Shown here piece after piece: positions 5,278-62,165 of a stretch of DNA of 64,000 nt. The DNA is taken from the sequence record PZ445442.1; one strand, given 5' to 3'. Within the stretch, counting starts at the first letter, position 1; every line of letters starts with the position of its first letter. The notes under the pieces were generated by a model. That model saw only the letters and a list, made by a program, of their open reading frames with translations, was not told where the DNA came from and ran no database searches. A program made the position numbers and the translations under genes. Origin of the DNA: a phage.

Positions 5278-5298
5278 GAAAGTCCAGGAGATAAAGTT

Positions 5299-6060: not shown

Positions 6061-6095
6061 TACTTGAAAATTCCTGGCATATCAAGTATAAGGGG

Positions 6096-6689: not shown

Positions 6690-7175
6690 AATAACGGGCA
6701 GGCCCGGTGATTGTCTCCCGGCCCCTGCTGCCCCGGCTTGTTATTATAGTATCACACAGGACAAAGAAGGCAAGGATTTTTTGCATAAATTTTTAAATGA
6801 TAATGATAACCGTTCTCATTTTATGAAGCGCCCATCCCCGGTGGTTGTCTCCCCCGTCACCGGTGCCTGCCGTCCTTTCGATAGGTATATTATGCCGCCT
6901 GGCGGGGCCGCTGTCAACACTTTTCAAAAAATTTTTCTAACCTGATGCGCTAACCGTTGCAACCTGGCGGGGCCAGCCTGGCAGGTCCGCACTATAAAGT
7001 AAACAGCTACAGAAGAGGTACAAAAATGAAAGGTAATGCTACTCGCCTGGGAAATGTAGTGATTAATGATACGGAAGCTATCGCCCTGGTTGAAAAGGTT
7101 ATGGCGGGAGCGTTGGAACATAAAGAAGAGTACGAAAAAAATGGTGGTTAACCTGGCGGGGGGCGGCAGGTGGAT
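6690..7175. repeat. GC-rich short repeats (CCGGTG(A/G)TTGTCTCC at 6703 and 6839; CCTGGCGGGG at 6898, 6963, 7152) in AT-rich background
   Basis: Direct reading; inverted copy of the 22-nt GGCAGGCCCGGTGATTGTCTCC occurs at about 16285-16306. Confidence 0.55.
7026..7151 (+). CDS. hypothetical small protein (41 aa)
   Basis: ATG at 7026 after AGAAGAGG RBS; flanked by CCTGGCGGGG repeats. Confidence 0.3.
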   Translation: MKGNATRLGNVVINDTEAIALVEKVMAGALEHKEEYEKNGG

Positions 7176-7282
7176 TCTATCATAAAAATAATTTAAAATA
7201 GTCGTTGACAACAAGGTTAATCATGGTATTATTACCCTACAAGGTGAACAACACCGCACTAACCAGTAAAGAGGATAAATTT

Positions 7283-7480
7283 ATGAACGCATACGGGATC
7301 AAAGTACGTCGCAACACTCGCCAGGTGGTCACCAATCAAGTGATTTGCCGGGTGGATGTAACCATCAACAACGGGCAAGGCCTTTATAAATTTCGTCGCG
7401 GCCATAGCTATACCCTGCAACAGCTTAATCGTTGCGCCCTGACAAAAGGTCAGATCAACCACTGGTTTAATAAAAAATAA
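7283..7480 (+). CDS. hypothetical protein
   Basis: ATG at 7283 after AAAGAGGA; promoter-like TTGACA-N16-TATTAT at about 7205-7232. Confidence 0.5.
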   Translation: MNAYGIKVRRNTRQVVTNQVICRVDVTINNGQGLYKFRRGHSYTLQQLNRCALTKGQINHWFNKK

Positions 7481-7544
7481 GTATTGACATACAGTCCGAC
7501 ACCAAATACACTAAAAGCACAAAAGACACTAAGAGGATAAAATC

Positions 7545-7943
7545 ATGAAAACCACTACCTTTAATTTTGATAATGCAGACTTTTCTTTTTCTGATGTCAA
7601 GAACTGCCGCCGTGATCGTGGATTTTACAAGGCTTATAATCTGGTGGGCCTGGACGATGACAATAATTTGCACGAAGTAGCTGAGATCCGGTATTATGCC
7701 GCCGCCAGCGGGAACACTCACTACTGCGTGTTTTGGATTCACGACAACAAGAACAATAAGTACGGTTATACTGGCGGCAAGGCGAGCGGTCACGGTTACG
7801 ATAAAGCTAACGCAGCACTTGAGAGCGCATTAAATGCTATGGGGATCACTGCCGACGGCTGGATCTACGAAGAAGAGTTTTTGTCGGCACTTGCTGACCA
7901 CCTGGGCTATAAAAAACACATTGTAACATGCGCCCACGAATAA
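7545..7943 (+). CDS. hypothetical protein
   Basis: 132-aa ORF, AAGAGGA RBS, upstream TTGACA-N17-TACACT. Confidence 0.55.
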   Translation: MKTTTFNFDNADFSFSDVKNCRRDRGFYKAYNLVGLDDDNNLHEVAEIRYYAAASGNTHYCVFWIHDNKNNKYGYTGGKASGHGYDKANAALESALNAMGITADGWIYEEEFLSALADHLGYKKHIVTCAHE

Positions 7944-7949
7944 AAATCA

Positions 7950-7977
7950 TTGACACGCTGCAAAATTTAAGTAAACT
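7950..7977 (+). promoter_or_regulatory. sigma70-like promoter (TTGACA-N16-TAAACT) followed by leader hairpin GGCGGGAATGTTTCCCGCC (7988-8006)
   Basis: Hexamers and spacing read directly. Confidence 0.55.
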
Positions 7978-8025
7978 AGACACAAAAGGCGGGAATGTTT
8001 CCCGCCAGCACAAAGGAAAAAGATC

Positions 8026-8421
8026 ATGAATAAGAACGTACGCCGCATCATGAACGAACTGGCAAACGATGAAAAAATTATTGATATGCATTTGGTCAAC
8101 ATTTGCCGCCGTTGTGTAACATATAACAACCGCGCCGCAAAAGCGCGTGAGATGAACGCAAAAGGCACCTTAAAGCCCTTTCAGGTGGTTGTAAAATCTA
8201 TAACTAGCGCAGCAGGCCAGGCGCAGGACCACAACAACGAGAGCGCTAATATTGATCCGTCTTACGTAATGAAACGGATCCGGACTTGCAAGAATAAAGA
8301 GCAGGTATATAACGTCATAGATTGGCTGGACTCCCTGGGCGATGTGGTTTACAATAGGTTTTCTGCAGCTATCGAGATCCAGCTTGACAGATTGGACGGG
8401 AAAGTACTAAAAACTTATTGA
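8026..8421 (+). CDS. hypothetical protein
   Basis: 131-aa ORF with promoter, leader hairpin and AAGGA RBS. Confidence 0.55.
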   Translation: MNKNVRRIMNELANDEKIIDMHLVNICRRCVTYNNRAAKAREMNAKGTLKPFQVVVKSITSAAGQAQDHNNESANIDPSYVMKRIRTCKNKEQVYNVIDWLDSLGDVVYNRFSAAIEIQLDRLDGKVLKTY

Positions 8422-8422
8422 G

Positions 8423-8467
8423 TTTATTTTTAGATGGCCTTGACACCAGGGCCATCAATAAAGTAAA
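8423..8467 (+). repeat. conserved 45-bp intergenic element copy 1 (TTATTTTTAGATGGCCTTGACACCAGGGCCATCAATAAAGTAAAC)
   Basis: Near-identical copies at 9043 and 12775; contains inverted repeat GATGGCC/GGCCATC around TTGACA. Confidence 0.7.
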
Positions 8468-8500
8468 CTAACCACAGTTGAGCGGAAAGGGGGCTTAAAG

Positions 8501-8620
8501 ATGAGCACTACACGCCAGCACACAAAGGTAACCATCATCGTTTGCATCATTGGGTACATCCTGGCGCAAATGTTGATGGGTAGCGCCAACGGTGTCGCAA
8601 AATTTTTCTTAAACTTTTAA
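8501..8620 (+). CDS. small hydrophobic peptide (39 aa)
   Basis: ATG at 8501 after AAGGGGG RBS; below track cutoff; hydrophobic core IIVCIIGYILAQMLMG. Confidence 0.35.
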   Translation: MSTTRQHTKVTIIVCIIGYILAQMLMGSANGVAKFFLNF

Positions 8621-8648
8621 TTGACAAGCTAACTTAAATCGATATAAT
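8621..8648 (+). promoter_or_regulatory. sigma70-like promoter TTGACA-N16-TATAAT
   Basis: Perfect consensus hexamers with 16-nt spacer, upstream of gene 8700. Confidence 0.65.
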
Positions 8649-8699
8649 AAGCACATAAACGGGAAAACTTCCCAGAACACACAAAAGGAGAAAAACACC

Positions 8700-9041
8700 A
8701 TGACTACTATGACCGCCTCAGAAAAAGCTATGCAGATCGCTGAACTGAAAAAACAGATCGCAGACCTTGAGAATAAGATCGATAACTTTGAAATCGACGA
8801 GGACAAGTACGACGAAAACTATGATGAATGGTTAGACGAGATCTACGGCGAAATTATGATCGGAAACATTTCTTTTCTTCCGTCGCGTATCCTCAAGGAG
8901 CTAGATCCTATCGCTTACCGCTGCGGATTTAGCGACTACATCGACAGCCTGGATATTGAGGACGATGAAGAATACCAGGAATTACAGACAGAGTTAGAAG
9001 AAGCAAAAGAAGAGCTTGCGGAGCTGGAAGAAAACGAGTAA
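8700..9041 (+). CDS. hypothetical highly acidic protein
   Basis: 113-aa ORF, AAGGAG RBS, D/E-rich. Confidence 0.55.
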   Translation: MTTMTASEKAMQIAELKKQIADLENKIDNFEIDEDKYDENYDEWLDEIYGEIMIGNISFLPSRILKELDPIAYRCGFSDYIDSLDIEDDEEYQELQTELEEAKEELAELEENE

Positions 9042-9042
9042 G

Positions 9043-9087
9043 CTTATTTTTAGATGGCCTTGACACCAGGGCCATCAATAAAGTAAA
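9043..9087 (+). repeat. conserved 45-bp intergenic element copy 2
   Basis: Identical to 8423-8467. Confidence 0.7.
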
Positions 9088-9130
9088 CTTTATACTGTTA
9101 ACACTGAACTAATGCATAGGAGTTAAAACC

Positions 9131-9376
9131 ATGGCAGCACTAATCACCAAATATTATGCCCCTACCAACACCAAAAGCGCCCGTATCATGGTAAAAGGCT
9201 TCGGACGTAAAAAGGTGTACACCTGGGATTATGCCTTAGACACGGAAGACAACTACACCAACGCAATGACCGATTTTATTAATGAACTAAATAAGCAGAT
9301 CTTGACAAGTTATAAAGTGACCGATATTGCTTATATAGGTGAAGGCGGGATCTGTTTTGTAGGCATTGTGAAATAG
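9131..9376 (+). CDS. hypothetical protein
   Basis: 81-aa ORF, RBS TAGGAGTTAAAACCATGG (same leader as gene at 13745). Confidence 0.5.
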   Translation: MAALITKYYAPTNTKSARIMVKGFGRKKVYTWDYALDTEDNYTNAMTDFINELNKQILTSYKVTDIAYIGEGGICFVGIVK

Positions 9377-9450
9377 TTATTTTTTCGGTGGTCCTGGTTG
9401 CAGGGCCATCTATAAAGATAATTTATTAACACCATGAAAGGAGAAAGTAC

Positions 9451-9990
9451 ATGATCAGCGGGGCAAGTTTTATTATTGGCGCTATTGCTACGGCTTTAAT
9501 TGTAAATAAGATCCAGGATAAAAAGGAAAGAGGAAGTACCGCCCTTGCAGAATATCCATTTTGGGCATTCAACGATAACGAAGATTATATTATAAAGTAT
9601 AAAAATAAAGAAGGTGACCAAGTAACACCGCGACCGATCCCGGCTTACAAAATGCAGGAAACACTATACCGCCTGGAGGCGGGAGGCGCAAAAATTGTAG
9701 ACTTTTGGGGATACGACCACACAGATCAGGAAGTTATAAAGCGCCGTATCCGGGCTATTCAGGCCAATATTGAAGTTAGCAAGGGGGAATATATGAAAAT
9801 TAATTTCGAGAAAATTGTAAAGCGCCCTCATGATTCCGAAGAGCTGCCAGAACGCCGCCAGCGTAACAATAAACTGAATAAGCCAAAAAGGTTTGGGAAG
9901 ATCTGGCGTAATCATTATGATCGTAAATTGCCCGGCCTACTTTTGGAACGTGAACGACAGGCAGAACGATACCGCCATAAAGACAAATAA
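9451..9990 (+). CDS. hypothetical protein with N-terminal transmembrane segment
   Basis: 179-aa ORF, AAAGGAGA RBS, N-terminal hydrophobic helix, basic C-terminus. Confidence 0.55.
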   Translation: MISGASFIIGAIATALIVNKIQDKKERGSTALAEYPFWAFNDNEDYIIKYKNKEGDQVTPRPIPAYKMQETLYRLEAGGAKIVDFWGYDHTDQEVIKRRIRAIQANIEVSKGEYMKINFEKIVKRPHDSEELPERRQRNNKLNKPKRFGKIWRNHYDRKLPGLLLERERQAERYRHKDK

Positions 9991-9998
9991 CAACCAAC

Positions 9999-10029
9999 GC
10001 CCCGCCATTGTGCGGGGCTTTTTATTTCT
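9999..10029 (+). terminator. intrinsic terminator (GCCCCGC-cattgt-GCGGGGC + T-run)
   Basis: Perfect 7-bp GC stem followed by TTTTTATTT directly after stop of gene 9451-9990. Confidence 0.8.
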
Positions 10030-10231
10030 ATCCTACGAATAGCGCCCCTGGTTGGCCCCACAAACGCCACAAAAGCCCCTACCTATGCAATCCCCTTTCT
10101 TGACCTGAAAACAACGTCTAGGGCCGTTTTATGGCGTTAAAAATATTATTGACAGTGATTTTATTCAAAGCTTGACACCTTGGAATAGTCCGGATATACT
10201 AACCACATCAAAGCAAGAAGGAGTAAACGCC

Positions 10232-10492
10232 ATGCGTAAATTAAAAAATTTTGATAAAGTAGATGTTGTCCTGAATAATTTTTACTACTGCAATAATAAA
10301 GCCGTTTGGTGGCGTGATAGCTCCACCGATAAAGTTAAAGCGCGCTTTCTCCAGGGGCACTGGCAAGGCCGCCCAGTGATTAAAATCTTAGGGCAATTGG
10401 TAGCGTTTAAAAATTGCCACCGTGTTGACGACGTTGAAGATATTTTGAACATTTTACGCCACAATAATTTAAAAAATAGTGTTGACAAGTAA
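10232..10492 (+). CDS. hypothetical protein
   Basis: ATG at 10232 after AAGGAG; promoter TTGACA-N17-TATACT at about 10170-10198. Confidence 0.5.
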   Translation: MRKLKNFDKVDVVLNNFYYCNNKAVWWRDSSTDKVKARFLQGHWQGRPVIKILGQLVAFKNCHRVDDVEDILNILRHNNLKNSVDK

Positions 10493-10566
10493 GCCTCAAT
10501 AAGTATACTTAAACACACAGGCGGGAAAACTTCCCGCCACTAACAAAGAAAATAGGAGAAAATATC

Positions 10567-11190
10567 ATGACCACCGTTAACATTACTACAGGTTACAATT
10601 TATCTTTCGACGTGCTGACCGACGAACAAAAAGAAAAAGCCGTTGAAATGGTCCGCGAAAGAGAAGAACACAGCGGGGATAATTTTTTTGCAGAAAGTGT
10701 AATTGAATACTATAAAGAATATGTTTTTCCAGAGTATGGCCTTGAAGATACCGAAGTACATTGGTCAGGCTTTTGGTGCCAGGGTGACGGCGCGTCAATC
10801 AGTGCGGAAAACGTGGATTTAGAAAAATTCTTGCGTAAAGTAAAGGCCCTGACCAAGTTCCGATCAATTCGTCACTTGTTCGGCACAATGCACGATGGCG
10901 AGCTATCCGCAAGTGTTGAGCGTGATCCATATAGCCGCTATAGTCACGAAAACACTGTAAGCGGGTACATCGATACTACATGGCTAGACCTGACCGCCAA
11001 ACAAGAAAATAAAGTGGAAGATCTGGAAGAGCTGATCACCGAGACGGTACGGGAGCTATCCCGCAAGGTTTACGTAGACCTGGAGGAGGCCTATCTTGAG
11101 CAATTTACCGCCGAAAACTTGATCGGCCTTATCGAGGCAAATGATTGGCGGTTTGATGTGGATGAGCATGGCGAGATGAGTTTTTCATAA
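10567..11190 (+). CDS. hypothetical acidic protein
   Basis: 207-aa ORF; promoter TTGACA-N16-TATACT (10482-10509), leader hairpin GGCGGGAAAACTTCCCGCC, RBS AGGAGA. Confidence 0.55.
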   Translation: MTTVNITTGYNLSFDVLTDEQKEKAVEMVREREEHSGDNFFAESVIEYYKEYVFPEYGLEDTEVHWSGFWCQGDGASISAENVDLEKFLRKVKALTKFRSIRHLFGTMHDGELSASVERDPYSRYSHENTVSGYIDTTWLDLTAKQENKVEDLEELITETVRELSRKVYVDLEEAYLEQFTAENLIGLIEANDWRFDVDEHGEMSFS

Positions 11191-11279
11191 ATAAAGTGTT
11201 GCAATAATCTAAAAACCTGCTATATTAAAACTCAAGGGGCAAGACGTTTGCCCCCACACAAAACAAAGAGGAAAACATC

Positions 11280-11660
11280 ATGAAAAACACTACTAAAGCT
11301 ATTGACACCGTCATGTTTAACCTGGTTACATTCCGTGAAGATATGAAAGATCTTCCTCGTGAAACAGTGTGCGACCATATCGAAAACTATCGCAAACTAA
11401 TCAAAGAGTTGCCTTTAAAACGTGATCAATATGCGGCTAACGCCATGCTTAATGCCATGATCAAAAAGATGATCCAGTGTGATTTAACCCTGGCCTATGA
11501 TTATGCAGGCGGTCGTTTTGCAGTATACAATCAGCCCGTGCCCGGTATGAGCACCACCGAAGAATTGCACGCGCTCAATCTAAAACAAGACGTGTGGGAT
11601 AGTATGCCTCGCGTGGTGGTATGGGTAGAAAGCGGAAAGATTTACGGCGATAATTTTTAA
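11280..11660 (+). CDS. hypothetical protein
   Basis: 126-aa ORF; promoter TTGCAA-N16-TATATT, leader hairpin GGGGCAAGACGTTTGCCCC, RBS AGAGGA. Confidence 0.55.
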   Translation: MKNTTKAIDTVMFNLVTFREDMKDLPRETVCDHIENYRKLIKELPLKRDQYAANAMLNAMIKKMIQCDLTLAYDYAGGRFAVYNQPVPGMSTTEELHALNLKQDVWDSMPRVVVWVESGKIYGDNF

Positions 11661-11724
11661 TCAGGTAGCAGGCGGCATATTTGCCGCCTTATTGTTAATC
11701 AGAACTGTAAAAGAGGTACATAGA

Positions 11725-12096
11725 ATGGAATTTATTATTTTGGCTGTATTTGTTGCCTTGTTCAACGCCTGGATCGCTGGCAAGATGGGTAGATCCGCCT
11801 TTTTATGGTTTATTATATCTATTTTCCTGGGGGTGGTTGCAACTATTGTACTTGTTATCCTTGCAATTGTTGACAAGGGGAATAATAGAAAGGGTAAAGT
11901 ATTTTCAGACCTGTACGACGCTCAAACGTTTGTCAACGCCTATTATAGTGATCTTCCAGTCTCCCTACGCTGCAGCCTGGCACAACAAGTTTTCGATGAG
12001 GCTAAAACCAGAGATCAAGCCCATGAGATATGTTTAACTGAGGCGGATCGCCTATTTGAGAGGAATAGAAAATATGTGGGCCAACCGTTTAAATAA
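11725..12096 (+). CDS. putative membrane protein (two predicted TM helices)
   Basis: ATG at 11725 after AAAGAGG; hydrophobic segments. Confidence 0.5.
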   Translation: MEFIILAVFVALFNAWIAGKMGRSAFLWFIISIFLGVVATIVLVILAIVDKGNNRKGKVFSDLYDAQTFVNAYYSDLPVSLRCSLAQQVFDEAKTRDQAHEICLTEADRLFERNRKYVGQPFK

Positions 12097-12295
12097 TGCC
12101 ACATTAATTAATCCCTTTAGTGAAGATTTGAAGCCAGCCGCCTGGCGTGATGGATTCAATAACGAACGCTTTATTTTCAAGCCTGATCTTGAGGAATTTT
12201 ATAACAATGGATCGAACAACGACAGAGATAATTTTTCTTGTGGTGTGCGTAGTGATGGTACTCCTGGGGGCCATTGTAAACCACGTCACTACTAA
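12074..12295 (+). CDS. hypothetical protein (uncertain; overlaps alternative small membrane-peptide ORFs)
   Basis: ATG at 12074 after GAGAGG; competing small ORFs at 12207-12332 and 12316-12432 each with RBS. Confidence 0.3.
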   Translation: MWANRLNNATLINPFSEDLKPAAWRDGFNNERFIFKPDLEEFYNNGSNNDRDNFSCGVRSDGTPGGHCKPRHY

Positions 12296-12438
12296 CAGGG
12301 GGAAAGGGGGAGACGATGACACCCAAGGATAAGCCCCGCACCGATAAGGCGCGCCGTGTTATGGTATGGCTTGAGATCATCGCCCTTGAAATATTGTTAG
12401 GGGTAGGGATGTACTTTATCGCTGTAAGTAACTAAGAA

Positions 12439-12467
12439 CGGCCCCCCGATCATGGGGGCCTATCTTT
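12439..12467 (+). terminator. intrinsic terminator (GGCCCCC-gatcat-GGGGGCC + T-run)
   Basis: GC stem-loop followed by TATCTTTT. Confidence 0.7.
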
Positions 12468-12572
12468 TAAAAAAATTCTTCCGGGGTGTTGCAATCCGGT
12501 CCGGAATGTGGATAATAACAATCAACGGGGAGCTAATCCCCACCACCACAAAAACCAGAAAGGAGAAACAAA

Positions 12573-12773
12573 ATGAGCAACAATATCCGCGTTATTAACT
12601 TCAAAAAAGAAGAAAAAATTGCCGTGCTGATTGACGGTCAAGAAATCTTCAAGGGCGACTATGAAGATCATCAAACGGCGATTAGTATCACTCGCGTGAT
12701 TGGTTACCATAATTTTTACCCCCAAGGCGCTGAGGCAGCGGTTAAACGAATCAAAGAGATTGTAGGCCTGTAA
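12573..12773 (+). CDS. hypothetical protein
   Basis: 66-aa ORF; promoter TTGCAA-N18-TAATAA, leader hairpin GGGGAGCTAATCCCC, RBS AAGGAGA. Confidence 0.5.
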   Translation: MSNNIRVINFKKEEKIAVLIDGQEIFKGDYEDHQTAISITRVIGYHNFYPQGAEAAVKRIKEIVGL

Positions 12774-12774
12774 A

Positions 12775-12820
12775 ATTTATTTTTAGATGGCCTTGACTCC
12801 AGGGCCATCAATAAAGTAAA
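12775..12820 (+). repeat. conserved 45-bp intergenic element copy 3 (one mismatch: TTGACT)
   Basis: Aligns to 8423-8467 and 9043-9087. Confidence 0.7.
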
Positions 12821-12867
12821 TTTAAACCCTGTTAAAAATACCACGCAGTTAACAAGGAGTGATAGAC

Positions 12868-13167
12868 ATGTTTATCCAGGCTAATAATCTTTATTTCTTT
12901 GATGGTCAGATCGTAGACGGCGTGGAGGTGGAAATCACCGGGTGCCCTAGCGGTCAGGTTATGACTTTTCGGAATAATGCCTTTGATGATTCTCATATCG
13001 TTATGAGAATGGAAGTTAGTAAGCTGGATGACAAGAAAACACTTATCGACTATTCCGTCAAAGATCATCCAGACTACCACATGATCTATGGTGATTTGTG
13101 CATTGTTGACCGTGACAAGGTTGGCGGCATTGTGATCGCTATTGTGAACGATGTTTTCTCAAACTAA
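12868..13167 (+). CDS. hypothetical protein
   Basis: ATG at 12868 after AAGGAG. Confidence 0.5.
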   Translation: MFIQANNLYFFDGQIVDGVEVEITGCPSGQVMTFRNNAFDDSHIVMRMEVSKLDDKKTLIDYSVKDHPDYHMIYGDLCIVDRDKVGGIVIAIVNDVFSN

Positions 13168-13184
13168 TTTCAGCAGGTAATTTT

Positions 13185-13535
13185 ATGAAAGTAAAACTAT
13201 ATTACCTTAATGAGCTTAACCCCCTTGCCCAGGTCCGCGCCCTGGCTAATACCTTGATTTGTGAGAAATCTGTATATTGTGTTGAGCTTAACGCCATGCG
13301 TGAACGTCTCAAAGGTGGTTACTTTGACATCCATGCTGCAATCAACGGCCTGAATATAGAATTTATCCGCTTACGTAACAGCCGCCAGAATCTGGCAAGA
13401 ATGGAACAAGATCCGGCCCACCTTCGTAAGCTGGTTATTGAAAATCATCTGATGTTTAATGCCGATGGTGATTATTACCATTTTCACCGTAAACGCTGGT
13501 ACCGTAGCGGCAATATAGGAAAGAATGCAAAATAA
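13185..13535 (+). CDS. hypothetical protein
   Basis: 116-aa ORF. Confidence 0.5.
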   Translation: MKVKLYYLNELNPLAQVRALANTLICEKSVYCVELNAMRERLKGGYFDIHAAINGLNIEFIRLRNSRQNLARMEQDPAHLRKLVIENHLMFNADGDYYHFHRKRWYRSGNIGKNAK

Positions 13536-13572
13536 GGCCCCTGGCAGGGCCTGCAGCGATATAATCACATAA

Positions 13573-13604
13573 AGGCTATGCGGTTGCATAGCCTTTATTA
13601 TTTT
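13573..13604 (+). terminator. intrinsic terminator (AGGCTATGC-ggtt-GCATAGCCT + T-run)
   Basis: 9-bp perfect stem followed by TTATTATTTT. Confidence 0.8.
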
Positions 13605-13744
13605 GGCGTTACAGCGGCCCCCAAGGCGCTTAAAAAATTTTTAAAGAAGTACTTGCATCAAGTCCTACAATATGGATAATAAAGGGTGTCGGGGGGGGGC
13701 GGTGAGGCCTCCAATCATTAACCGGATAGATAGGAGTTAAAACC

Positions 13745-14029
13745 ATGGCTATTGTTACCGTTGGCGATGTAGTGGAAATGGAAGCAAAATACTTAAAAGC
13801 GGGTATGCATATCCTACGCAACGATCTTGAACTAGTCCTGACAATGGTTGACTATAACCCAGGGCAAGATTATCCAAGCATCGACTACTTTTTTGAGTAT
13901 GTTGATGAAGAGTTGAAAGAGGATGAGGCCTATTGCGGTGAGTTCTGCAATTTCTTTTGTCCTGATGAGGTTGTAAAGGTTATCTATCAACCTGGCGTAC
14001 CTTTCCCGCTGCACGCTATCAATAAATAA
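13745..14029 (+). CDS. hypothetical acidic protein
   Basis: 94-aa ORF, RBS TAGGAGTTAAAACC. Confidence 0.5.
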   Translation: MAIVTVGDVVEMEAKYLKAGMHILRNDLELVLTMVDYNPGQDYPSIDYFFEYVDEELKEDEAYCGEFCNFFCPDEVVKVIYQPGVPFPLHAINK

Positions 14030-14092
14030 ACCTGGTGGGGCCGAAAAGGCCCCCTCCTGAAACTATGAAAAAATAAAGAGAGGTAAATCATC

Positions 14093-14326
14093 ATGATGGA
14101 ACAAATTAAACGCGCTGAGTCTATTAATGGCAATGTGATCTATTTTGTCAGCAAAAACGAAAAAGGCGTACCATATGCGGCGGTAATAGTACAACCTGAC
14201 GGCGATTATTGGTTTACTGTATACGGATCTTATTCTTTCGGGCGTCCGGTTCATGATAGAATTTTGAAAGTAGCAAATCCGACCGGGAAAAATATCACAG
14301 CAGAAAAATTTTTTGAAAATAGTTGA
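14093..14326 (+). CDS. hypothetical protein
   Basis: 77-aa ORF, RBS AGAGAGG. Confidence 0.5.
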   Translation: MMEQIKRAESINGNVIYFVSKNEKGVPYAAVIVQPDGDYWFTVYGSYSFGRPVHDRILKVANPTGKNITAEKFFENS

Positions 14327-14402
14327 CATGACCATATAAGACTGTAATATATAAATCAAAGGGGGGCAACAAGCCCCACCAACCACAAAGAGGATAAAAA
14401 TC

Positions 14403-14582
14403 ATGGCTATTATTGCAAAGACTGAGATCGTAGGCTTAGATTCTATTCTCCTCGCATATGAGGAAGCTATAGAAATGTATGTGGTTTCCTATGGTGAGTA
14501 TATTCGTGAATATAAATCTATTGATCTGGCTTTTGAATGTTATATTCGCCAGGTAAATAAAGCATATGATGATTATCGTTAA
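14403..14582 (+). CDS. hypothetical protein (59 aa, below track cutoff)
   Basis: Promoter TTGACA-N16-TAATAT (14321-14348), leader hairpin GGGGGGCAACAAGCCCC, RBS AAGAGGA, ATG 14403. Confidence 0.45.
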   Translation: MAIIAKTEIVGLDSILLAYEEAIEMYVVSYGEYIREYKSIDLAFECYIRQVNKAYDDYR

Positions 14583-14667
14583 AATAGTTTGACAACAATT
14601 ACAAATCGGGTAGAATGTATTTCGTAGGGCGGCAATGATGCCGCTCACAACTAAAAGAGAGATCATC

Positions 14668-14862
14668 ATGGCGCTTAAAAAACTAACAAGCAATACTCGT
14701 TGGGATGAAATCGACGGGGAAGTTTACATTTTTGCCCGTAAACCAGGGGATCAAAAATGGTCAAAGGCTTTTACTTGCCATCCTGCAACAATAGATCTGA
14801 TAAAAAGTCAAGGACTACGTGAAGCAGTAGCAAGAAGTTTACTGATCCCTTGTAAAAATTAG
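14668..14862 (+). CDS. hypothetical protein
   Basis: ATG at 14668 after AAAGAGAG; promoter TTGACA-N16-TAGAAT upstream. Confidence 0.5.
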   Translation: MALKKLTSNTRWDEIDGEVYIFARKPGDQKWSKAFTCHPATIDLIKSQGLREAVARSLLIPCKN

Positions 14863-14939
14863 TTTGACAACAGTCAACAATCTGGTAAAGTGTACTACAT
14901 AGCGCGGGAATACTTCCCGCCATTAATGAGGGTAATTTA

Positions 14940-15077
14940 ATGAAAACTTTCAACGCAACAGCCTCGACAATTGGTTATATTATTACAGTACAAGCCGTGG
15001 ATCTGGTAGCAGCAGCAAACAAGATTAAAAAGATGATTCCGCCAGGTAGTGAATTTTCCGTTTGGGAAGTAAAATAA
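14940..15077 (+). CDS. hypothetical small protein (45 aa)
   Basis: Promoter TTGACA at about 14866, leader hairpin GCGGGAATACTTCCCGC, RBS TGAGGGTA, ATG 14940. Confidence 0.4.
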   Translation: MKTFNATASTIGYIITVQAVDLVAAANKIKKMIPPGSEFSVWEVK

Positions 15078-15160
15078 ATCTTGACAATAGTTTATTACTT
15101 GATAGACTGTATTTCGTAGGGCGGGGCAATAAGGCAACGCCCATTAATGAGGGTAGAATC

Positions 15161-15265
15161 ATGTTAGAGAAAATTTTCACGGTTGTAGTAGTTGGCCTGG
15201 CATTATCGGTTGGAGTGGTTGCAACTATGGCTAACATGATCCTATCTTCCCACGGTATCGGTTAA
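15161..15265 (+). CDS. small hydrophobic peptide (34 aa)
   Basis: Promoter TTGACA at about 15071, conserved leader, RBS TGAGGGTAG, ATG 15161; single TM-like helix. Confidence 0.35.
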   Translation: MLEKIFTVVVVGLALSVGVVATMANMILSSHGIG

Positions 15266-15275
15266 GGTGAATCAA

Positions 15276-15491
15276 ATGATCACGAATAAGACAGGTAAAA
15301 CAGAATTTTTACGCGGCTTGCAAATAGGTAAGCCTGAGATCTGGCATTGCACTAAAACACCACGTGACGAAATGAAAGACTTCACCGCCACGCTGCAACG
15401 GGTAAAGATATCCATCACGCAGAAAAAGGCCTTGATAGTGGTGGAAGGTGAGATCCCTCAAACCGTTGTTATAGTTGAGCGTACAGCATAG
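15276..15491 (+). CDS. hypothetical protein
   Basis: ATG 15276 (track uses GTG 15267). Confidence 0.45.
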   Translation: MITNKTGKTEFLRGLQIGKPEIWHCTKTPRDEMKDFTATLQRVKISITQKKALIVVEGEIPQTVVIVERTA

Positions 15492-15582
15492 TTTAATTTA
15501 TAGCGATACCTGAAAATTAACCAATAAATCATAAACAGGCGGTTACCGCCGCCTTAAACGTAGCAGAAAGAGGCTAGACACA

Positions 15583-15867
15583 ATGAAAAAGATGATCGCA
15601 GTAGTTGCCCTGGTTGTTGGACTTAATGCGCCTGTAATGGCTAAAGAGCTGGCAAAAGAGGTTAATCTAACGGATATCCATGCCGTCAATCAAATCGGGG
15701 TTACTTATCGCTTATGCCTTGCCGCTAAAACTTTTAATGACGGCACAACAGAGTACTACGGATTCGAGGGTATCCGGTGCGGTAAGCTTGCTCGCGACCT
15801 TAAGGAAGATCCAGACCTGGAAGATCTGCCCATCACCGTAAACGGTAAAGCTTACGTAAACCGTTAA
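15583..15867 (+). CDS. putative secreted/periplasmic protein
   Basis: N-terminal signal-peptide-like MKKMIAVVALVVGLNAPVMA; RBS AAAGAGG. Confidence 0.5.
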   Translation: MKKMIAVVALVVGLNAPVMAKELAKEVNLTDIHAVNQIGVTYRLCLAAKTFNDGTTEYYGFEGIRCGKLARDLKEDPDLEDLPITVNGKAYVNR

Positions 15868-15870
15868 CCA

Positions 15871-16005
15871 TGAGAAAGATAATCATCACCTTGGGGATTG
15901 TGGCTGGATCGCTGGCGCTCTTTCCCCTTATGGTTAGGTATGTGCTGATCAGTATTGTCCTGGTAGTCAGTGATCTATTGGGAACGGTTGGCACCTTGTT
16001 TTAAA
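15871..16005 (+). CDS. small membrane peptide (44 aa)
   Basis: ATG immediately after upstream stop; two hydrophobic stretches. Confidence 0.35.
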
Positions 16006-16016
16006 GAGCGATAAAA

Positions 16017-16208
16017 ATGAATATCGAACAAGTTAGAAAGGTATTGGCGGTACTGCGTTATCATAATCATAGAAAGGTTATAGACGATCCTGATTATGTT
16101 GATTCAAGTCTGGAAGGGGATACACTGCAAGCCATAAGCAACATGCAAGAATTGCTCAAGCGCATGACAGAGAAAAACCGACCGGACTACATAGGCGAAA
16201 AAATATAA
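16017..16208 (+). CDS. hypothetical protein
   Basis: 63-aa ORF. Confidence 0.45.
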   Translation: MNIEQVRKVLAVLRYHNHRKVIDDPDYVDSSLEGDTLQAISNMQELLKRMTEKNRPDYIGEKI

Positions 16209-16224
16209 TCCTTATAAACTACAA

Positions 16225-16255
16225 AACAGGGCTTGCAATGGTCCTGTTTTTTGTT
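16225..16255 (+). terminator. intrinsic terminator (stem AACAGGG/CCTGTT + T-run)
   Basis: Hairpin followed by TTTTTTGTT after gene 16017-16208. Confidence 0.65.
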
Positions 16256-16419
16256 ATACTTGTTTCACGGCAGGCACCTGGCGACGGGTGGAGACAATCA
16301 CCGGGCCTGCCTGTCATATAAGAACTATAAAAACCGTTGACATCTGCCAGGTGGTGGGGTAACATTTATCTTGAAGGGGCAAAAGTGCCCACACAACAAC
16401 CAGAAGAGAGGAAAACATT

Positions 16420-16692
16420 ATGTCAAGCTGGATTAATCAAGAAGTCGAATCACGTTTTAATGCTATTTGGGATCTCATCGAAAAAGAGGACGGAACATCA
16501 AGCCCTTATCTCAATAATCTTGAATTCCATTTCGTGGAAGCGATGAACGCAGAACATGATCACGAAGGTGGTGCGGATGAGTTCGCTAAAGGGTATGGCT
16601 TCAACAATGCCAACGAAATGATCGAGGCGGTTGTACTCCAGGCTGAGGAAGATTATCAATTAAAAACGCTTGAATTCTGCCGCCGTAAGTAA
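16420..16692 (+). CDS. hypothetical acidic protein
   Basis: Promoter TTGACA-N17-TAACAT, leader hairpin GGGGCAAAAGTGCCC, RBS AGAGAGGA. Confidence 0.5.
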   Translation: MSSWINQEVESRFNAIWDLIEKEDGTSSPYLNNLEFHFVEAMNAEHDHEGGADEFAKGYGFNNANEMIEAVVLQAEEDYQLKTLEFCRRK

Positions 16693-16752
16693 TAAGATAA
16701 TGACACGGGCCAAAAGGCCCACTAATCAGAACCACACAAAGAGAGAAAGAAA

Positions 16753-16971
16753 ATGACAACCCGTAAAATTAAAGTTGTTTGCATTGAATCGACTGGGGGC
16801 GCTTTTGTAGTTGGTCAGGAATATAATGCGGTTTTAATGGGTACGGATTGGAAGGTTAAAGGCCTTAATGGTTACGAGTACGGCACTACTTGCGGCTTGC
16901 GTGGTCGAATCGGATACGTGAGTTTAGACAACAAAGAAAAATTTGTTTTCGACACCGTTGTGAGTAAATAG
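16753..16971 (+). CDS. hypothetical protein
   Basis: Leader hairpin GGGCCAAAAGGCCC, RBS AAAGAGAGA. Confidence 0.5.
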   Translation: MTTRKIKVVCIESTGGAFVVGQEYNAVLMGTDWKVKGLNGYEYGTTCGLRGRIGYVSLDNKEKFVFDTVVSK

Positions 16972-17049
16972 CATGAATTGCTAAAGACTGATCTGCGAAC
17001 TGCTGTATTATCAACTAATCAAAACGAACCGCATAAAGAGGAAAACATC

Positions 17050-17313
17050 ATGAAACGTCTGGATCAGCTTAAATTAGTTCAGTACATGGCCTACAGAATT
17101 CTTGAAGTCCAAAAAGGTAGCAAAAAAGAGGTTTGCGAGAAAGCTTATAAGATCTTTACTCGCAAAAAAGATGACTGGATGCTACGCCAGACCAAAAAAT
17201 CCGATATCCTGGGGTACCTGGAAGAAGAGATCCGGCTTGAAGAACAAGAAGAGATCCGCCGCAGTGAGGCAGATTATCAGGCAGCTTGGGAAAACTGGAT
17301 GAGCAACAAATAA
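17050..17313 (+). CDS. hypothetical protein
   Basis: ATG at 17050 after AAAGAGGAAAAC. Confidence 0.5.
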   Translation: MKRLDQLKLVQYMAYRILEVQKGSKKEVCEKAYKIFTRKKDDWMLRQTKKSDILGYLEEEIRLEEQEEIRRSEADYQAAWENWMSNK

Positions 17314-17457
17314 TACAACAAGTTACGGTCAGGGGGGTAATAAAGCCCCTTGATCACATAAAAATTATGCTATCCCTGGTTGACAGGGATCGGCAGTTTT
17401 GCTATATTCTTTTTTGAAGGGGAGTTGTAAGAAAATTAACTAAGAGGTAAAAACACC

Positions 17458-17877
17458 ATGAACATTAAATCTAATAATCCGGCATATAGCTTTGATAACG
17501 CTTTTTGTCACGGTCCGGCGGCGAAAGGATTCGAAATCGATGGTAAACTAATTATTGTCAATGTTGACGGGGAAGAGGTTGCAGTATATCCGGTGGCAGA
17601 CGTTAAAAGCCGTCTACAATGCCGCATGGATGTTACCGCCTATCAGCTTGATCCGGTCCGCATAGTTGCCCTGGTCCTGGAAGAAGAAATTAAAGCCATG
17701 CACCATAGCAACAGATTTATTGGTGACGCGCAGGATAATATGAAAGTATGCCGCCATAAAGTTAATGAAGTGCTTAAAGAGTACGGCTATAAAGATCTTA
17801 TGATCAAACGCGAGGAAAAATTCCGCTACCGTAACGACCTGGCAAATCGGATTTTTGAAATATACGAATCATTATAA
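17458..17877 (+). CDS. hypothetical protein
   Basis: 139-aa ORF, RBS TAAGAGG; last gene of + block. Confidence 0.5.
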   Translation: MNIKSNNPAYSFDNAFCHGPAAKGFEIDGKLIIVNVDGEEVAVYPVADVKSRLQCRMDVTAYQLDPVRIVALVLEEEIKAMHHSNRFIGDAQDNMKVCRHKVNEVLKEYGYKDLMIKREEKFRYRNDLANRIFEIYESL

Positions 17878-17895
17878 TTTTTTAACTGAATTATC

Positions 17896-17922
17896 AAGGG
17901 GCTTAGGCCCCTTTCTTTTTGT
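17896..17922 (+). terminator. intrinsic terminator closing the + strand block (AAGGGGC-ttag-GCCCCTT + TCTTTTTGT)
   Basis: 7-bp perfect stem plus U-run 20 nt after stop. Confidence 0.85.
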
Positions 17923-18409
17923 CTGCTCTTCCCCCTACCATAAACGGCCCTACCTGGCAAGTGGAATAATTGACGAGCCATCAATCCCACACACTGTACA
18001 AACATACATATAAAATAACTATTGCATAATTTTTCATTGTGTGGTAGCAGGGCCATTTTTACACATTTTTCCTTCCAAAATTGCACGTAATGCAGCATTT
18101 GCACAAAATTTAACCTGATGCATATATTCAATAGCTTGTCAACAACTAAAAATCTTTATAAGTCATACACTTACATAACTACAAAAGCGTTTTCTACGTG
18201 AAAAATCGAGTATAACTATAGCCGCCAGATCTCAGAATTTACGTACGCTCGCCATTCTATAGCCTGCTAAGCATTTATTCCAACCATAGAATAACGGAAT
18301 AGTCAATACCTGCATAAAATAATTATTCGTGTAAACTGCATAACATAAATCGGCCCAGGTGTCAACATTTTTCGTAAACAGTCTGGAATTGTCACGTTAG
18401 GTTACCATA

Positions 18410-62161: not shown

Positions 62162-62165
62162 ATTG

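What the first reader, a model, noticed from the sequence alone, without database searches (positions are those of the whole stretch)
7950..16760. Stereotyped early-gene leader: sigma70-like promoter, GC hairpin GGCGGGAA-N4-TTCCCGCC, then CACAAAGGA-type RBS
At least 11 genes (starts 8026, 8700, 10567, 11280, 12573, 14403, 14668, 14940, 15161, 16420, 16753) have a near-consensus TTGACA-N16-18-TATAAT-like promoter, followed about 10 nt later by a short perfect GC hairpin (e.g. GGCGGGAATGTTTCCCGCC, GGCGGGAAAACTTCCCGCC, GGGGCAAAAGTGCCC) and a conserved CACA(A)AAGGA/AGAGGA Shine-Dalgarno region. A hairpin at the extreme 5' end of each transcript suggests mRNA stabilisation or a common regulatory protein-binding site.
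Basis: seen in the sequence. Interest (0 to 1): 0.55.

Follow-up and report, generated by a model that had tools for sequence, protein, structure and literature searches.

The report
Promoter–hairpin–RBS cassettes of phage early genes
A cluster of small genes in an rV5-like E. coli phage each carries the same compact expression cassette (strong host-type promoter, a GC hairpin at the start of the mRNA, an A/C-rich leader and a strong ribosome-binding site); the pattern is real and conserved, but it belongs to an already described kind of mobile phage regulatory cassette ("PeSL").

Summary
The window is Escherichia phage EmilHeitz (Bas49, Vequintavirus, rV5-like). Nine complete promoter–hairpin–RBS units, plus three weaker ones, lie on the + strand between 7205 and 16755. 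The hairpin starts 8-12 nt (mode 10) after the -10 hexamer, far more often than chance (P about 1e-7). Across 13 relatives the -35 never varies and stems vary three times less than loops. Compensatory changes occur, and G·U is favoured over A·C, which points to a sense-strand RNA structure.

The units are best classed as PeSL-type cassettes, known from T4-like phages. They are repeated, and gene gain/loss breakpoints between relatives fall inside them. The same design, including the GCGGGAA-N3-TTCCCGC hairpin, occurs in another Vequintavirinae lineage and in jumbo phage 121Q. One gene module shared with 121Q is bounded by hairpin and next promoter.

The hairpins lack a U-tract, so they are not + strand intrinsic terminators. 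Loop variation and loop inversions argue against a loop-specific binding protein. The most likely role is a 5'-terminal stem-loop with a predicted 2-6 nt overhang, followed by an unstructured leader. This is inferred only: no 5'-end data exist, and hairpin+RBS units also occur without promoters. Interest is moderate to low: a new member of a known kind.

The parts
7205..7285 (+). Weak unit: TTGACA-16-TATTAT promoter, 4-bp hairpin 7243-7255 (GGTGaacaaCACC), leader, ATG 7283
7950..8028 (+). Unit: TTGACA-16-TAAACT, gap 10, hairpin 7988-8006 GGCGGGAAtgtTTCCCGCC (8 bp, -13 to -14.6 kcal/mol), AGCACAAAGGA leader, ATG 8026
   Evidence: The promoter equals rV5 P194. In relatives the loop changes TGT to ACA. 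EdH4 and Alma annotate this hairpin as 'terminator'
8621..8702 (+). Unit: TTGACA-16-TATAAT (12/12), gap 12, 5-bp hairpin 8661-8673 GGGAAaacTTCCC, A/C leader, AAGGAG, ATG 8700
   Evidence: the promoter equals rV5 P192
10482..10569 (+). Unit: TTGACA-16-TATACT, gap 10, hairpin 10520-10538 GGCGGGAAaacTTCCCGCC, leader, AGGAG, ATG 10567
   Evidence: the promoter equals rV5 P185. In relatives the loop changes AAC to GTT, and one C-to-T change gives a G·U pair
11199..11282 (+). Unit: TTGCAA-16-TATATT (TG-extended), gap 9, hairpin 11236-11254 GGGGCAAGacgTTTGCCCC, CACACAAAACAAAGAGGA, ATG 11280
   Evidence: Orthologues keep the hairpin through compensatory changes, paired insertions and a loop inversion
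12489..12575 (+). Unit: TTGCAA-16-GATAAT, gap 10, hairpin 12527-12541 GGGGAgctaaTCCCC, ACCACCACAAAAACCAGAAAGGAG, ATG 12573
   Evidence: It lies directly after a true terminator at 12440-12460 with a T-tract. In relatives the loop varies and the stem is extended
14323..14405 (+). Unit: TTGACA-16-TAATAT, gap 10-12, hairpin 14363-14377 GGGGCaacaaGCCCC, ACCAACCACAAAGAGGA, ATG 14403
   Evidence: the promoter equals rV5 P174; annotated as 'terminator' in EdH4
14589..14670 (+). Unit: TTGACA-16-TAGAAT, gap 10, hairpin 14627-14646 GGGCGGCAatgaTGCCGCTC (8 bp including one G·U), ACAACTAAAAGAGAG, ATG 14668 (64-aa ORF not annotated in the GenBank record)
   Evidence: It is a member of direct-repeat family D2 and an indel breakpoint
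14864..14942 (+). Unit: TTGACA-16-TAAAGT, gap 12, hairpin 14904-14920 GCGGGAAtacTTCCCGC, CATTAATGAGGGTA, ATG 14940
   Evidence: D2, D4; indel breakpoint
15081..15163 (+). Unit: TTGACA-16-TAGACT, gap 10, hairpin 15119-15142 GGGCG-(14 nt)-CGCCC, ATTAATGAGGGTA, ATG 15161
   Evidence: D2. Breakpoints for three relatives lie in TAGAMTGTATTTCGTAGGGCGG
16337..16422 (+). Unit: TTGACA-17-TAACAT, gap 11, hairpin 16377-16390 GGGCAaaagTGCCC, ACACAACAACCAGAAGAGAGGA, ATG 16420
   Evidence: the promoter equals rV5 P168; it follows the terminator-like hairpin 16223-16250
16670..16755 (+). Partial unit: marginal promoter TTGAAT-17-TAAGAT inside the end of the upstream ORF, gap 8, hairpin 16707-16720 GGGCCaaaaGGCCC, A/C leader, ATG 16753
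   Evidence: The gene with its leader is absent from EdH4, A51.2 and APCEc02. The hairpin is conserved in A7_1 with loop GAAA
14037..14095 (+). Hairpin+RBS without a detectable promoter: GGGGCCgaaaaGGCCCC 14037-14053, ATG 14093
   Evidence: Homologues of this gene in A7_1 and 121Q carry a different hairpin at the same place, with or without a promoter
15537..15585 (+). Hairpin+RBS without a detectable promoter: AGGCGGttaccgCCGCCT 15537-15554, ATG 15583
8421..8469 (+). Type-B cassette: 49-nt bipartite hairpin (10+10 bp) that starts at the upstream stop codon, with the -35 TTGACA in the apex and the -10 TAAACT in the 3' base
   Evidence: D1; -24 kcal/mol, z -8.1. Magaca lacks the segment between this copy and the next one
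9041..9089 (+). Type-B cassette, copy 2
9375..9423 (+). Type-B cassette, divergent copy 3 (71% identical, same fold through compensatory and G·U changes; promoter degenerate)
   Evidence: (-22 kcal/mol, z -5.8)
12774..12822 (+). Type-B cassette, copy 4

Best explanation
These are PeSL-type ('promoter-early stem-loop') expression cassettes of a Vequintavirus, in the arrangement promoter, then hairpin, then leader.

Proposed steps:
1. Host sigma70 RNA polymerase recognises an A-rich upstream tract, TTGACA, a 16-17 nt spacer and a -10 hexamer. This is read from the sequence and from conservation.
2. Transcription starts 7-8 nt after the -10 at a pyrimidine-purine step. This is inferred.
3. The GC hairpin, which begins 8-12 nt after the -10, then becomes a 5'-terminal stem-loop with only about 2-6 unpaired nucleotides in front of it.
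4. The stem-loop most likely shields the 5' end from 5'-end-dependent decay (RppH, then RNase E), as simple 5' hairpins do on ompA and papA mRNA. It also forms a closed module, so the following A/C-rich, G/U-poor leader and the strong SD (AAGGAG or AGAGGA, 5-9 nt before ATG) stay unpaired for fast translation. This is inferred.
5. In read-through RNA from the upstream promoters the same hairpin sits just 3' of the preceding ORF. There it may act as a decay barrier or weak attenuator.
6. Because the cassettes are repeated along the gene array, they are also the joints at which small genes are gained, lost and swapped. This is shown by comparison of relatives, and it holds even between phage families.
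For: Identity of the window: 100% match to Escherichia phage EmilHeitz, Vequintavirus.

Non-random co-occurrence and fixed spacing:
- 6 of 19 strict and 12 relaxed units, gap 8-12 nt, P about 1e-7.
- Hairpin-to-ATG distance is much looser, 18-32 nt.
- The order is always promoter then hairpin, 12 of 12.
- Units 12489 and 16337 keep their hairpins although they sit directly after true terminators. A role only in stopping upstream read-through would make those hairpins redundant.

Selection:
- Variable sites are -35 0/66, -10 6/66, stem 15/136, loop 18/53, promoter spacer 42/178 and codon position 3 72/330.
- Stem against loop P=4.6e-4; stem against codon 3 P=0.006.
- Variants keep the fold through compensatory changes, paired insertions and stem extension.

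Sense-strand RNA signature: among 47 distinct promoter-proximal hairpins the non-Watson-Crick positions are G·T 9, A·C 1, other 4.

Predicted transcripts fold as hairpin plus a fully open leader and RBS. The leader is 88% A+C.

PeSL features:
- The definition, including a subclass with the stem-loop downstream of the -10, comes from PMC2839356.
- Repeat families D2, D4, D5 and D7.
- Indel breakpoints inside cassettes in 5 relatives.
- The same design in A7_1 (10 units in 18 kb) and 121Q (6 in 8.6 kb).
- A module of 84.5% DNA identity shared by A7_1 and 121Q runs from the hairpin to the next -10.

Known biology: base pairing at the 5' end slows RNase E (PMC3997798). From my own knowledge of Emory, Bouvet and Belasco 1992, a stem-loop within 2-4 nt of the 5' end stabilises mRNA whatever its sequence.
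Against: - No start site or half-life has been measured for any Vequintavirus in the searched literature, so steps 2-4 are inference.
- The predicted overhang is 5-6 nt for 3-4 units. That may be too long, because RNase E readily bypasses ordinary stem-loops that do not sequester the 5' end (PMC9943677).
- At the level of intergenic junctions, hairpin presence is not associated with promoter presence (10/22 against 6/11, P=0.72).
- Hairpin+RBS units occur without promoters (14037, 15537).
- Five strong promoters at 3-7.5 kb have no hairpin.
- In RB49 PeSLs the stem-loop usually lies inside the promoter and is not in the local transcript. The PeSL authors report terminator-like activity of one such stem-loop.
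- Units are partly related by descent, so the 12 of 12 order and spacing counts are not independent.
Confidence: 0.55

Rival explanations
1. The hairpins act mainly on read-through RNA from upstream promoters. They would be attenuators or terminators, or 3'-exonuclease barriers and processing signals that punctuate a long polycistronic early transcript into stable single-gene mRNAs. Their position after the local promoter would be incidental.
For: - The PeSL authors interpret the stem-loops this way, and one RB49 stem-loop lowered downstream lacZ expression like rrnB T1.
- Annotators of EdH4 and Alma label these very hairpins 'terminator'.
- Hairpin+RBS units exist without promoters, and hairpin presence is not linked to promoter presence.
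- The co-resident type-B cassette is a conserved RNA-type hairpin (98.6% of cells paired, many G·U) that can exist only in read-through RNA.
- Nearly every junction between 7.9 and 16.8 kb has some hairpin.
Against: - 9 of 12 hairpins have 0-1 T in the 8 nt that follow, so they lack the U-tract of intrinsic terminators.
- A terminator placed after the local promoter would also stop that promoter's own transcripts. Yet the order is promoter then hairpin in 12 of 12 units, at a fixed 8-12 nt.
- Hairpins persist right after bona fide terminators (12440 before 12489; 16223 before 16337).
Confidence: 0.25
2. The inverted repeats matter at the DNA level. They would be recombination or template-switch hot spots, possibly targets of a recombination protein, that move ORFan modules. 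The RNA hairpin would be a by-product.
For: - Indel breakpoints map inside cassettes.
- An inter-family shared module starts exactly at the hairpin.
- Loop inversions occur between orthologues (TGT/ACA, AAC/GTT, GACGT/ACGTC), as palindromes undergo through strand switching.
- The PeSL papers localise crossovers in the loop and propose this role.
Against: - Homologous recombination needs only the repeated sequence, not a hairpin.
- Stems are under purifying selection while loops are free.
- Wobble pairs are G·T rather than A·C on the coding strand, 9 to 1. Type-B pairs are rich in G·U. This asymmetry is expected for RNA, not for a double-stranded DNA cruciform.
- Breakpoints also fall in promoter and RBS parts of the cassettes.
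Confidence: 0.12
3. The hairpin is the binding site of one common regulator. Candidates are a boxB/nut-like site for an antiterminator, a translational repressor site, or a DNA operator for early shut-off.
For: - Position just after the start site of many early transcripts.
- Small stem-loops of 5 bp with A-rich 4-5 nt loops (GGGCAaaagTGCCC, GGGCCaaaaGGCCC) look superficially like lambdoid boxB.
- The GCGGGAA-N3-TTCCCGC version recurs in several phage groups.
Against: - There are at least 6 unrelated stem sequences, and loops run from 3 to 14 nt.
- Loops change freely and invert between orthologues.
- No boxA-like element lies near any hairpin, and there is no Rfam match.
- Half-sites are not conserved as a DNA operator would require.
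Confidence: 0.05
4. Chance co-occurrence of promoter-like hexamers and GC palindromes in AT-rich intergenic DNA.
For: Short GC palindromes and promoter-like sites are individually common (65 such hairpins and 34 promoter-like sites on the + strand of 64 kb).
Against: About 0.25 co-occurrences are expected against 6 strict or 12 relaxed observed, P 1e-7 to 3e-9. All lie on the coding strand upstream of ORFs. The elements are conserved in relatives.
Confidence: 0.01

Closest known systems
PeSLs (promoter-early stem-loop cassettes) of T4-like phages RB49/phi1, PST and nt-1 (Arbiol et al. 2010, PMC2839356; Comeau et al. 2014, PMC4122927)
   Same: Both have a strong sigma70-type promoter with an A/T-rich upstream tract, an adjacent G...C stem-loop, and an A/C-rich leader, SD and start. 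Both are repeated before small ORFans in a variable region. Indels between close relatives are bounded by the cassettes. A subclass with the stem-loop downstream of the -10 is explicitly listed.
   Different: The host phage is a Vequintavirus, not a T4-like phage. Here the hairpin is almost always downstream of the -10 at a fixed 8-12 nt and so is transcribed. In RB49 it mostly lies between -35 and -10 or over the -10: only 2 downstream-type units were found in 50 kb with 49 promoters. No terminator or mini-circle test exists for this phage.
5'-terminal stem-loop mRNA stabilisers (ompA and papA 5' UTR; synthetic 5' hairpins; T7 gene 10 leader)
   Same: Each is a simple hairpin at the very start of the mRNA whose sequence is unimportant, followed by an efficient RBS. 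The predicted 2-6 nt overhang overlaps the 2-4 nt limit (my recollection of Emory et al. 1992; general principle in PMC3997798).
   Different: Here the 5' end is only predicted. Some units would have an overhang that is too long. Identical hairpin+RBS units occur with no promoter. RNase E bypasses stem-loops that do not hold the 5' end (PMC9943677).
Intrinsic (Rho-independent) terminators, the label given to these hairpins in the EdH4 and Alma GenBank records
   Same: GC-rich stem of 5-8 bp with a short loop, located in an intergenic region.
   Different: There is no U-tract on the coding strand (0-1 T in 8 nt for 9 of 12). They lie downstream of a promoter. All have a G-rich 5' arm (28 of 28 here, in A7_1 and in 121Q), whereas by my reading 8 of the 20 published rV5 terminators have a C-rich 5' arm.
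Morons of lambdoid phages (autonomous promoter-gene-terminator insertions) and the RNase III-punctuated early mRNAs of T7
   Same: Each small gene is a self-contained transcription and translation module that can be inserted or lost. Hairpins sit between cistrons. The 49-nt type-B hairpin (10+10 bp with an internal loop) resembles a T7-type RNase III site in size.
   Different: No terminator follows most genes. RNase III cleavage is untested. The type-A stems (5-8 bp) are too short for RNase III.

Membership tests
PeSL cassettes | Sigma70-consensus early promoter with an A/T-rich tract upstream of the -35 | tested here: met
   8 perfect TTGACA; spacer 16-17 nt; A-tracts upstream of all 12. The -35 is invariant in relatives.
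PeSL cassettes | Adjacent stable G...C stem-loop in one of five positions relative to the promoter (including downstream of the -10, or overlapping the -35) | tested here: met
   Type A lies downstream of the -10. Type B overlaps the -35 and -10.
PeSL cassettes | Intergenic position, ending in SD + start of a small ORFan within a variable ('hyperplastic') region | tested here: met
   All units precede hypothetical ORFs of 34-207 aa. One unit was found in the 37 kb of replication genes upstream, against 12 here.
PeSL cassettes | Many similar copies per genome that can recombine | tested here: met
   Repeat families D1, D2, D4, D5, D7, D14.
PeSL cassettes | Insertions, deletions and replacements between close relatives are bounded by the cassettes | tested here: met
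   Breakpoints 8469/9041, 14632/15103, 14636/14856, 14934/15141 and 16748/17014, with 15-56 nt of overlap inside cassettes. The inter-family module is bounded by hairpin and next -10.
PeSL cassettes | Stem-loop works as a transcription terminator or attenuator; cassette pairs form mini-circles | not testable with these tools
   This needs reporter assays and inverse PCR. From sequence alone the type-A hairpins lack a U-tract.
5'-terminal stem-loop mRNA stabiliser | Stem-loop within about 2-4 nt of the mRNA 5' end | tested here: inconclusive
   No start-site data exist. Assuming a start 7-8 nt after the -10 at a pyrimidine-purine step, the overhang is 2-4 nt in 8 units and 5-6 nt in 4 (my reading of the sequence).
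5'-terminal stem-loop mRNA stabiliser | Effect depends on structure, not sequence | tested here: met
   There are many stem sequences. Loops are free while stems are conserved, with compensatory changes and a G·U bias. This is consistent with the feature but does not prove stabilisation.
5'-terminal stem-loop mRNA stabiliser | Longer mRNA half-life that depends on RppH or the RNase E 5' sensor | not testable with these tools
   Needs a rifampicin chase with stem mutants.
Intrinsic terminator | GC-rich hairpin immediately followed by a U-rich tract on the transcribed strand | tested here: not met
   0-1 T in the next 8 nt for 9 of 12 units, and at most 3 T in the rest. The terminator scan reports them only on the - strand.
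Lambdoid nut site (boxA + boxB) | Conserved boxB loop recognised by an N-type protein, with a boxA element nearby | tested here: not met
   Loops run 3-14 nt, vary and invert between orthologues. No boxA-like sequence lies next to any hairpin. No Rfam match.

The most novel reading that the evidence does not exclude
The promoter–hairpin–RBS units, together with the type-B 'promoter inside a hairpin' units, may form a shared cassette system used by unrelated large virulent coliphages: Vequintavirinae, the jumbo Asteriusvirus 121Q and Krischvirus RB49. In this reading the cassettes serve as universal adaptors. Any ORFan flanked by them is expressed at once in a new phage. It can also be exchanged between phage families by short-homology recombination at the hairpin or promoter. 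The RNA hairpins would additionally punctuate early transcripts into individually stabilised mRNAs. The evidence in hand is one module of 84.5% DNA identity and 92% protein identity shared by A7_1 and 121Q, bounded exactly by a hairpin and the next promoter. The GCGGGAA-N3-TTCCCGC hairpin also occurs after promoters in several phage groups.
Probability: 0.3. Interest if true: 0.55.

Novelty: new member of a known kind. Interest (0 to 1): 0.3.

Why it matters
If the model holds, three things follow.

- It explains how rV5-like phages obtain very fast, strong and mutually independent expression of dozens of tiny host-takeover genes.
- It corrects a recurrent annotation error: these hairpins are labelled as terminators in GenBank records.
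- It extends the PeSL concept of mobile regulatory cassettes from T4-like phages to Vequintavirinae and jumbo coliphages, with a direct example of cassette-bounded gene exchange between phage families.

In practice the units are compact, naturally optimised expression parts for E. coli. They also mark the boundaries at which accessory genes can safely be swapped when engineering therapeutic rV5-like phages. None of this overturns current understanding.

Tried and rejected
- Rfam scan of 1-24000 at E up to 1: no match.
- Literature searches for start-site or transcriptome data on Vequintavirus or rV5-like phages: nothing usable. The rV5 genome paper lists the promoters and true terminators but not the leader hairpins.
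- IMG/VR search with the 207-aa early protein: only 8 loci, 2 of them close relatives. Comparative work therefore relied on GenBank phages.
- I considered that a 5'-UTR hairpin could block RNase E scanning wherever it sits. I rejected this because RNase E readily bypasses ordinary stem-loops (PMC9943677). Only a truly 5'-terminal hairpin would protect.
- I tested whether hairpins are tied to promoters at the level of intergenic junctions. They are not significantly tied (P=0.72). This weakens, but does not remove, the 5'-end model.
- Antisense-terminator idea: only 7988-8006 has a good T-run on the - strand (TTTTGTGT). The others are weak, and the G·T over A·C bias points to the sense strand.
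- nut/boxB idea: rejected.
- N4-type hairpin promoters (my recollection): not pursued, because the -35 and -10 hexamers are conserved and no virion RNA polymerase is known for this group.
- A covariance model of type-A hairpins was not built. Aligning paralogous stems chosen because they pair would be circular.

Full report
**What the window is**

The region 7950-16760 is 100% identical to Escherichia phage EmilHeitz (Bas49, MZ501062.1), a Vequintavirus (rV5-like myovirus). About 250 related phage records match it. In that record the region is a + strand array of small hypothetical genes. The array closes a long + strand cluster that starts with rIIA/B, helicase, primase and DNA polymerase genes. 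The rV5 genome paper already lists several of the promoters (P168, P174, P185, P192, P194) and the true terminators (t177, t181, t184) of this stretch. It says nothing about hairpins after the promoters.

**Check of the observation**

I read the sequence and tabulated every unit.

- Ten have a promoter scoring at least 9/12. Eight have a perfect TTGACA. The spacer is 16 nt in nine.
- The hairpin begins 8-12 nt (mode 10) after the -10 hexamer. The gap printed is one too large.
- Stems are 5-8 bp and loops 3-5 nt, with one 14-nt loop.
- The hairpin ends 18-32 nt before the ATG.
- An unbiased scan of the whole 64 kb finds nine complete units on the + strand, all between 7950 and 16420, and one on the - strand.
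- Under strict criteria, 6 of 19 strong + strand promoters in 1-18000 carry a perfect GC hairpin at gap 7-13. About 0.25 are expected (P 3e-9 to 1e-7).
- The stretch between hairpin and SD is 59% A, 29% C, 7% T and 5% G.

Small corrections:
- The GGCGGGAA loop is N3, not N4.
- The promoter of gene 16753 is marginal (8/12).
- The hairpin of 15161 has a long loop, and that of 8700 is weak.
- Two leaders read ATTAATGAGGGTA instead of CACAAA.
- A weak twelfth unit sits at 7205-7285.

**Conservation**

I fetched the region from 13 other Vequintavirinae genomes or contigs and aligned each leader with its orthologues.

| Site class | Variable sites |
|---|---|
| -35 hexamer | 0 of 66 |
| -10 hexamer | 6 of 66 |
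| Hairpin stem | 15 of 136 (11%) |
| Hairpin loop | 18 of 53 (34%) |
| Promoter spacer | 42 of 178 |
| Third codon positions | 72 of 330 |

- Stems are significantly more conserved than loops (P=4.6e-4) and than third codon positions (P=0.006).
- Variant hairpins nearly always still fold. Unit 11199 shows compensatory changes and paired insertions that lengthen the stem (L005, L018). Unit 12489 gains a sixth pair.
- Only four single disruptions were seen.
- Three loops are exactly inverted between orthologues (TGT/ACA, AAC/GTT, GACGT/ACGTC). This is what palindromes undergo by strand switching, and it shows that loop sequence is not read by anything specific.
- Among 47 distinct promoter-proximal hairpins from all loci, internal non-Watson-Crick positions are G·T nine times and A·C once. 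This asymmetry is expected for an RNA made from the coding strand.

**What kind of thing it is**

The units are repeated: families D2, D4 and D7, plus identical RBS modules D5 and D14. Gene-content differences between close relatives have their breakpoints inside the units:

- Magaca lacks 8470-9040, between two copies of a second cassette.
- Magaca, APCEc02 and typing phage 14 lack 14633-15102, with a 22-nt overlap running from the -10 to the 5' arm of the hairpin.
- EdH4 lacks 14637-14855.
- A51.2 switches at CCATTAATGAGGGTA.
- Gene 16753 with its leader is absent from three relatives.

This is the behaviour described for PeSLs of T4-like phages. PeSLs are strong sigma70 promoters with an adjacent G...C stem-loop and SD, repeated before ORFans, and they mediate modular shuffling. 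One of their five subclasses has the stem-loop downstream of the -10.

I looked at RB49 directly. Its stem-loops mostly lie between -35 and -10 or over the -10. Only two downstream-type units occur among 49 promoters in 50 kb. The Vequintavirus version is therefore a member of the kind with one dominant geometry.

The same geometry is found in other phages:
- A7_1, a different Vequintavirinae lineage, has 10 units in 18 kb.
- The jumbo phage 121Q has 6 units in 8.6 kb, including GCGGGAA-N3-TTCCCGC.
- Several 97-153 kb IMG/VR contigs also carry it.
- One ORFan is 92% identical in protein between A7_1 and 121Q. The DNA homology runs from the hairpin to the -10 of the next cassette and stops there.

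**A second cassette**

A 49-nt element occurs four times in the window (8421, 9041, 9375, 12774).

- It folds into a 10+10 bp hairpin of -22 to -24 kcal/mol, z -6 to -8.
- It begins at the upstream stop codon and carries the -35 in its apex and the -10 in its 3' base.
- Fifty copies (25 distinct) in 15 loci keep the fold. 98.6% of cells are paired, four pairs change on both sides, and G·U pairs are many. It beats both the shuffled and the slid controls.
- This hairpin lies upstream of its own start site, so it can exist only in read-through RNA.
- Its size resembles a T7-type RNase III site. That is untested.

**How the type-A hairpin most likely works**

E. coli promoters start 7-8 nt after the -10 at a pyrimidine-purine step. 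On that basis the stems begin at about +3 to +7, leaving 2-6 unpaired nucleotides (my reading). This is as close to the start as a GC-rich block can sit without entering the region that must melt.

Base pairing at the 5' end slows RNase E (PMC3997798). From my recollection of Emory et al. 1992, a hairpin within 2-4 nt of the 5' end stabilises mRNA whatever its sequence. The predicted transcripts fold as hairpin plus a completely open A/C-rich leader and SD.

Three further points favour a role in the local transcript:
- The order is promoter then hairpin in 12 of 12 units.
- The distance to the -10 is tight, while the distance to the ATG is loose.
- Hairpins persist directly after true terminators (12440 before 12489; 16223 before 16337).

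They are not + strand intrinsic terminators, because 9 of 12 have 0-1 T in the next 8 nt. Even so, two GenBank records label them as terminators.

**What speaks against this, and the rivals**

- No 5'-end or half-life data exist.
- RNase E bypasses ordinary stem-loops that do not hold the 5' end (PMC9943677). Units with a 5-6 nt overhang may therefore not be protected.
- Hairpin presence at intergenic junctions is not linked to promoter presence (P=0.72).
- Hairpin+RBS units at 14037 and 15537 have no promoter.
- Five strong promoters at 3-7.5 kb have no hairpin.
- The type-B hairpin and the RB49 arrangement show that hairpins acting on read-through RNA are part of this system.

A role as decay barrier or attenuator in read-through RNA is the main rival (0.25). 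It may well coexist with the 5' role. A purely DNA-level recombination role (0.12) fits the breakpoints and loop inversions, but not the stem-specific selection or the G·U bias. A common binding protein (0.05) is contradicted by stem diversity, free and inverting loops, the absence of boxA and the absence of any Rfam match. Chance is excluded.

**Verdict**

The 'common regulator' idea is unlikely. The element is a new member of a known kind: PeSL-type mobile regulatory cassettes combined with a 5' stem-loop leader. It has not, as far as the searched literature shows, been described for Vequintavirus. Interest is moderate to low (0.3). The most interesting open reading is cassette-mediated exchange of ORFans between unrelated coliphage families.

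Noticed in passing
window 8421-8469, 9041-9089, 9375-9423, 12774-12822: A second stereotyped cassette: a 49-nt bipartite hairpin (10+10 bp, -22 to -24 kcal/mol). It starts at the upstream stop codon and encloses a whole promoter, with the -35 in the apex and the -10 in the 3' base. Fifty copies in 15 related loci keep the fold, with covariation and many G·U pairs. It can exist only in read-through RNA, and it may be an RNase III-type processing site.
   Followed up: partly
window 7996-7998, 10528-10530, 11243-11247 compared with orthologues in L004, L005, L008, L017, L018: The loops of three leader hairpins are exactly inverted between orthologues (TGT/ACA, AAC/GTT, GACGT/ACGTC) while the stems stay the same. 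This is the signature of palindrome inversion by strand switching at the DNA level.
   Followed up: partly
window 14668-14865: A 64-aa ORF with its own consensus promoter, hairpin and RBS is not annotated in the EmilHeitz GenBank record. A51.2 annotates a 74-aa version. Conversely, the annotated CDSs bas49_0107 (7928-8029) and bas49_0131 (16251-16340) lie over a promoter/leader and over a terminator/promoter respectively, and look spurious.
   Followed up: partly
L021 3101-3429 and L016 4634-4974; window 14093-14326: A small early gene is 92% identical in protein (84.5% in DNA) between the Vequintavirinae phage A7_1 and the jumbo phage 121Q. By eye it resembles the window's gene 14093, though I did not run that comparison. 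The shared DNA runs from the leader hairpin to the next cassette's -10. The 207-aa protein of gene 10567 also has 43-60% identical homologues in the 121Q/RaK2 jumbo phages.
   Followed up: partly
window 6363-6548: Three imperfect direct repeats of about 65 nt (70-77% identical) lie in a stretch annotated with two tiny ORFs. Their function is unknown.
   Followed up: no
window about 17900-20300: An ORF-poor stretch of about 2.4 kb lies between the convergent + and - strand gene clusters. It appears to correspond to the 'non-coding' box of the rV5 map. It has internal repeats at 18539/18737 and 19467/19613, a short tandem repeat at 19172-19206, and no Rfam match.
   Followed up: no
window 62086-62897: A cluster of seven tRNA genes. 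One tRNA-like gene (62555-62653) is called by ARAGORN with a four-base anticodon (atcc).
   Followed up: no
window 11265-11285 and 17035-17055; 9116-9135 and 13730-13749: Identical 20-21-nt RBS-plus-start modules (AAAGAGGAAAACATCATGAAA; ATAGGAGTTAAAACCATGGC) sit before unrelated genes. The translation-initiation part of the cassettes is therefore also shuffled as a module.
   Followed up: no
whole window against MZ501062.1: Window position 1 corresponds to record position 76759. The window would therefore run 778 nt past the end of the 139,980-bp record, so its source may be a permuted or different assembly of the same phage. I did not check this.
   Followed up: no
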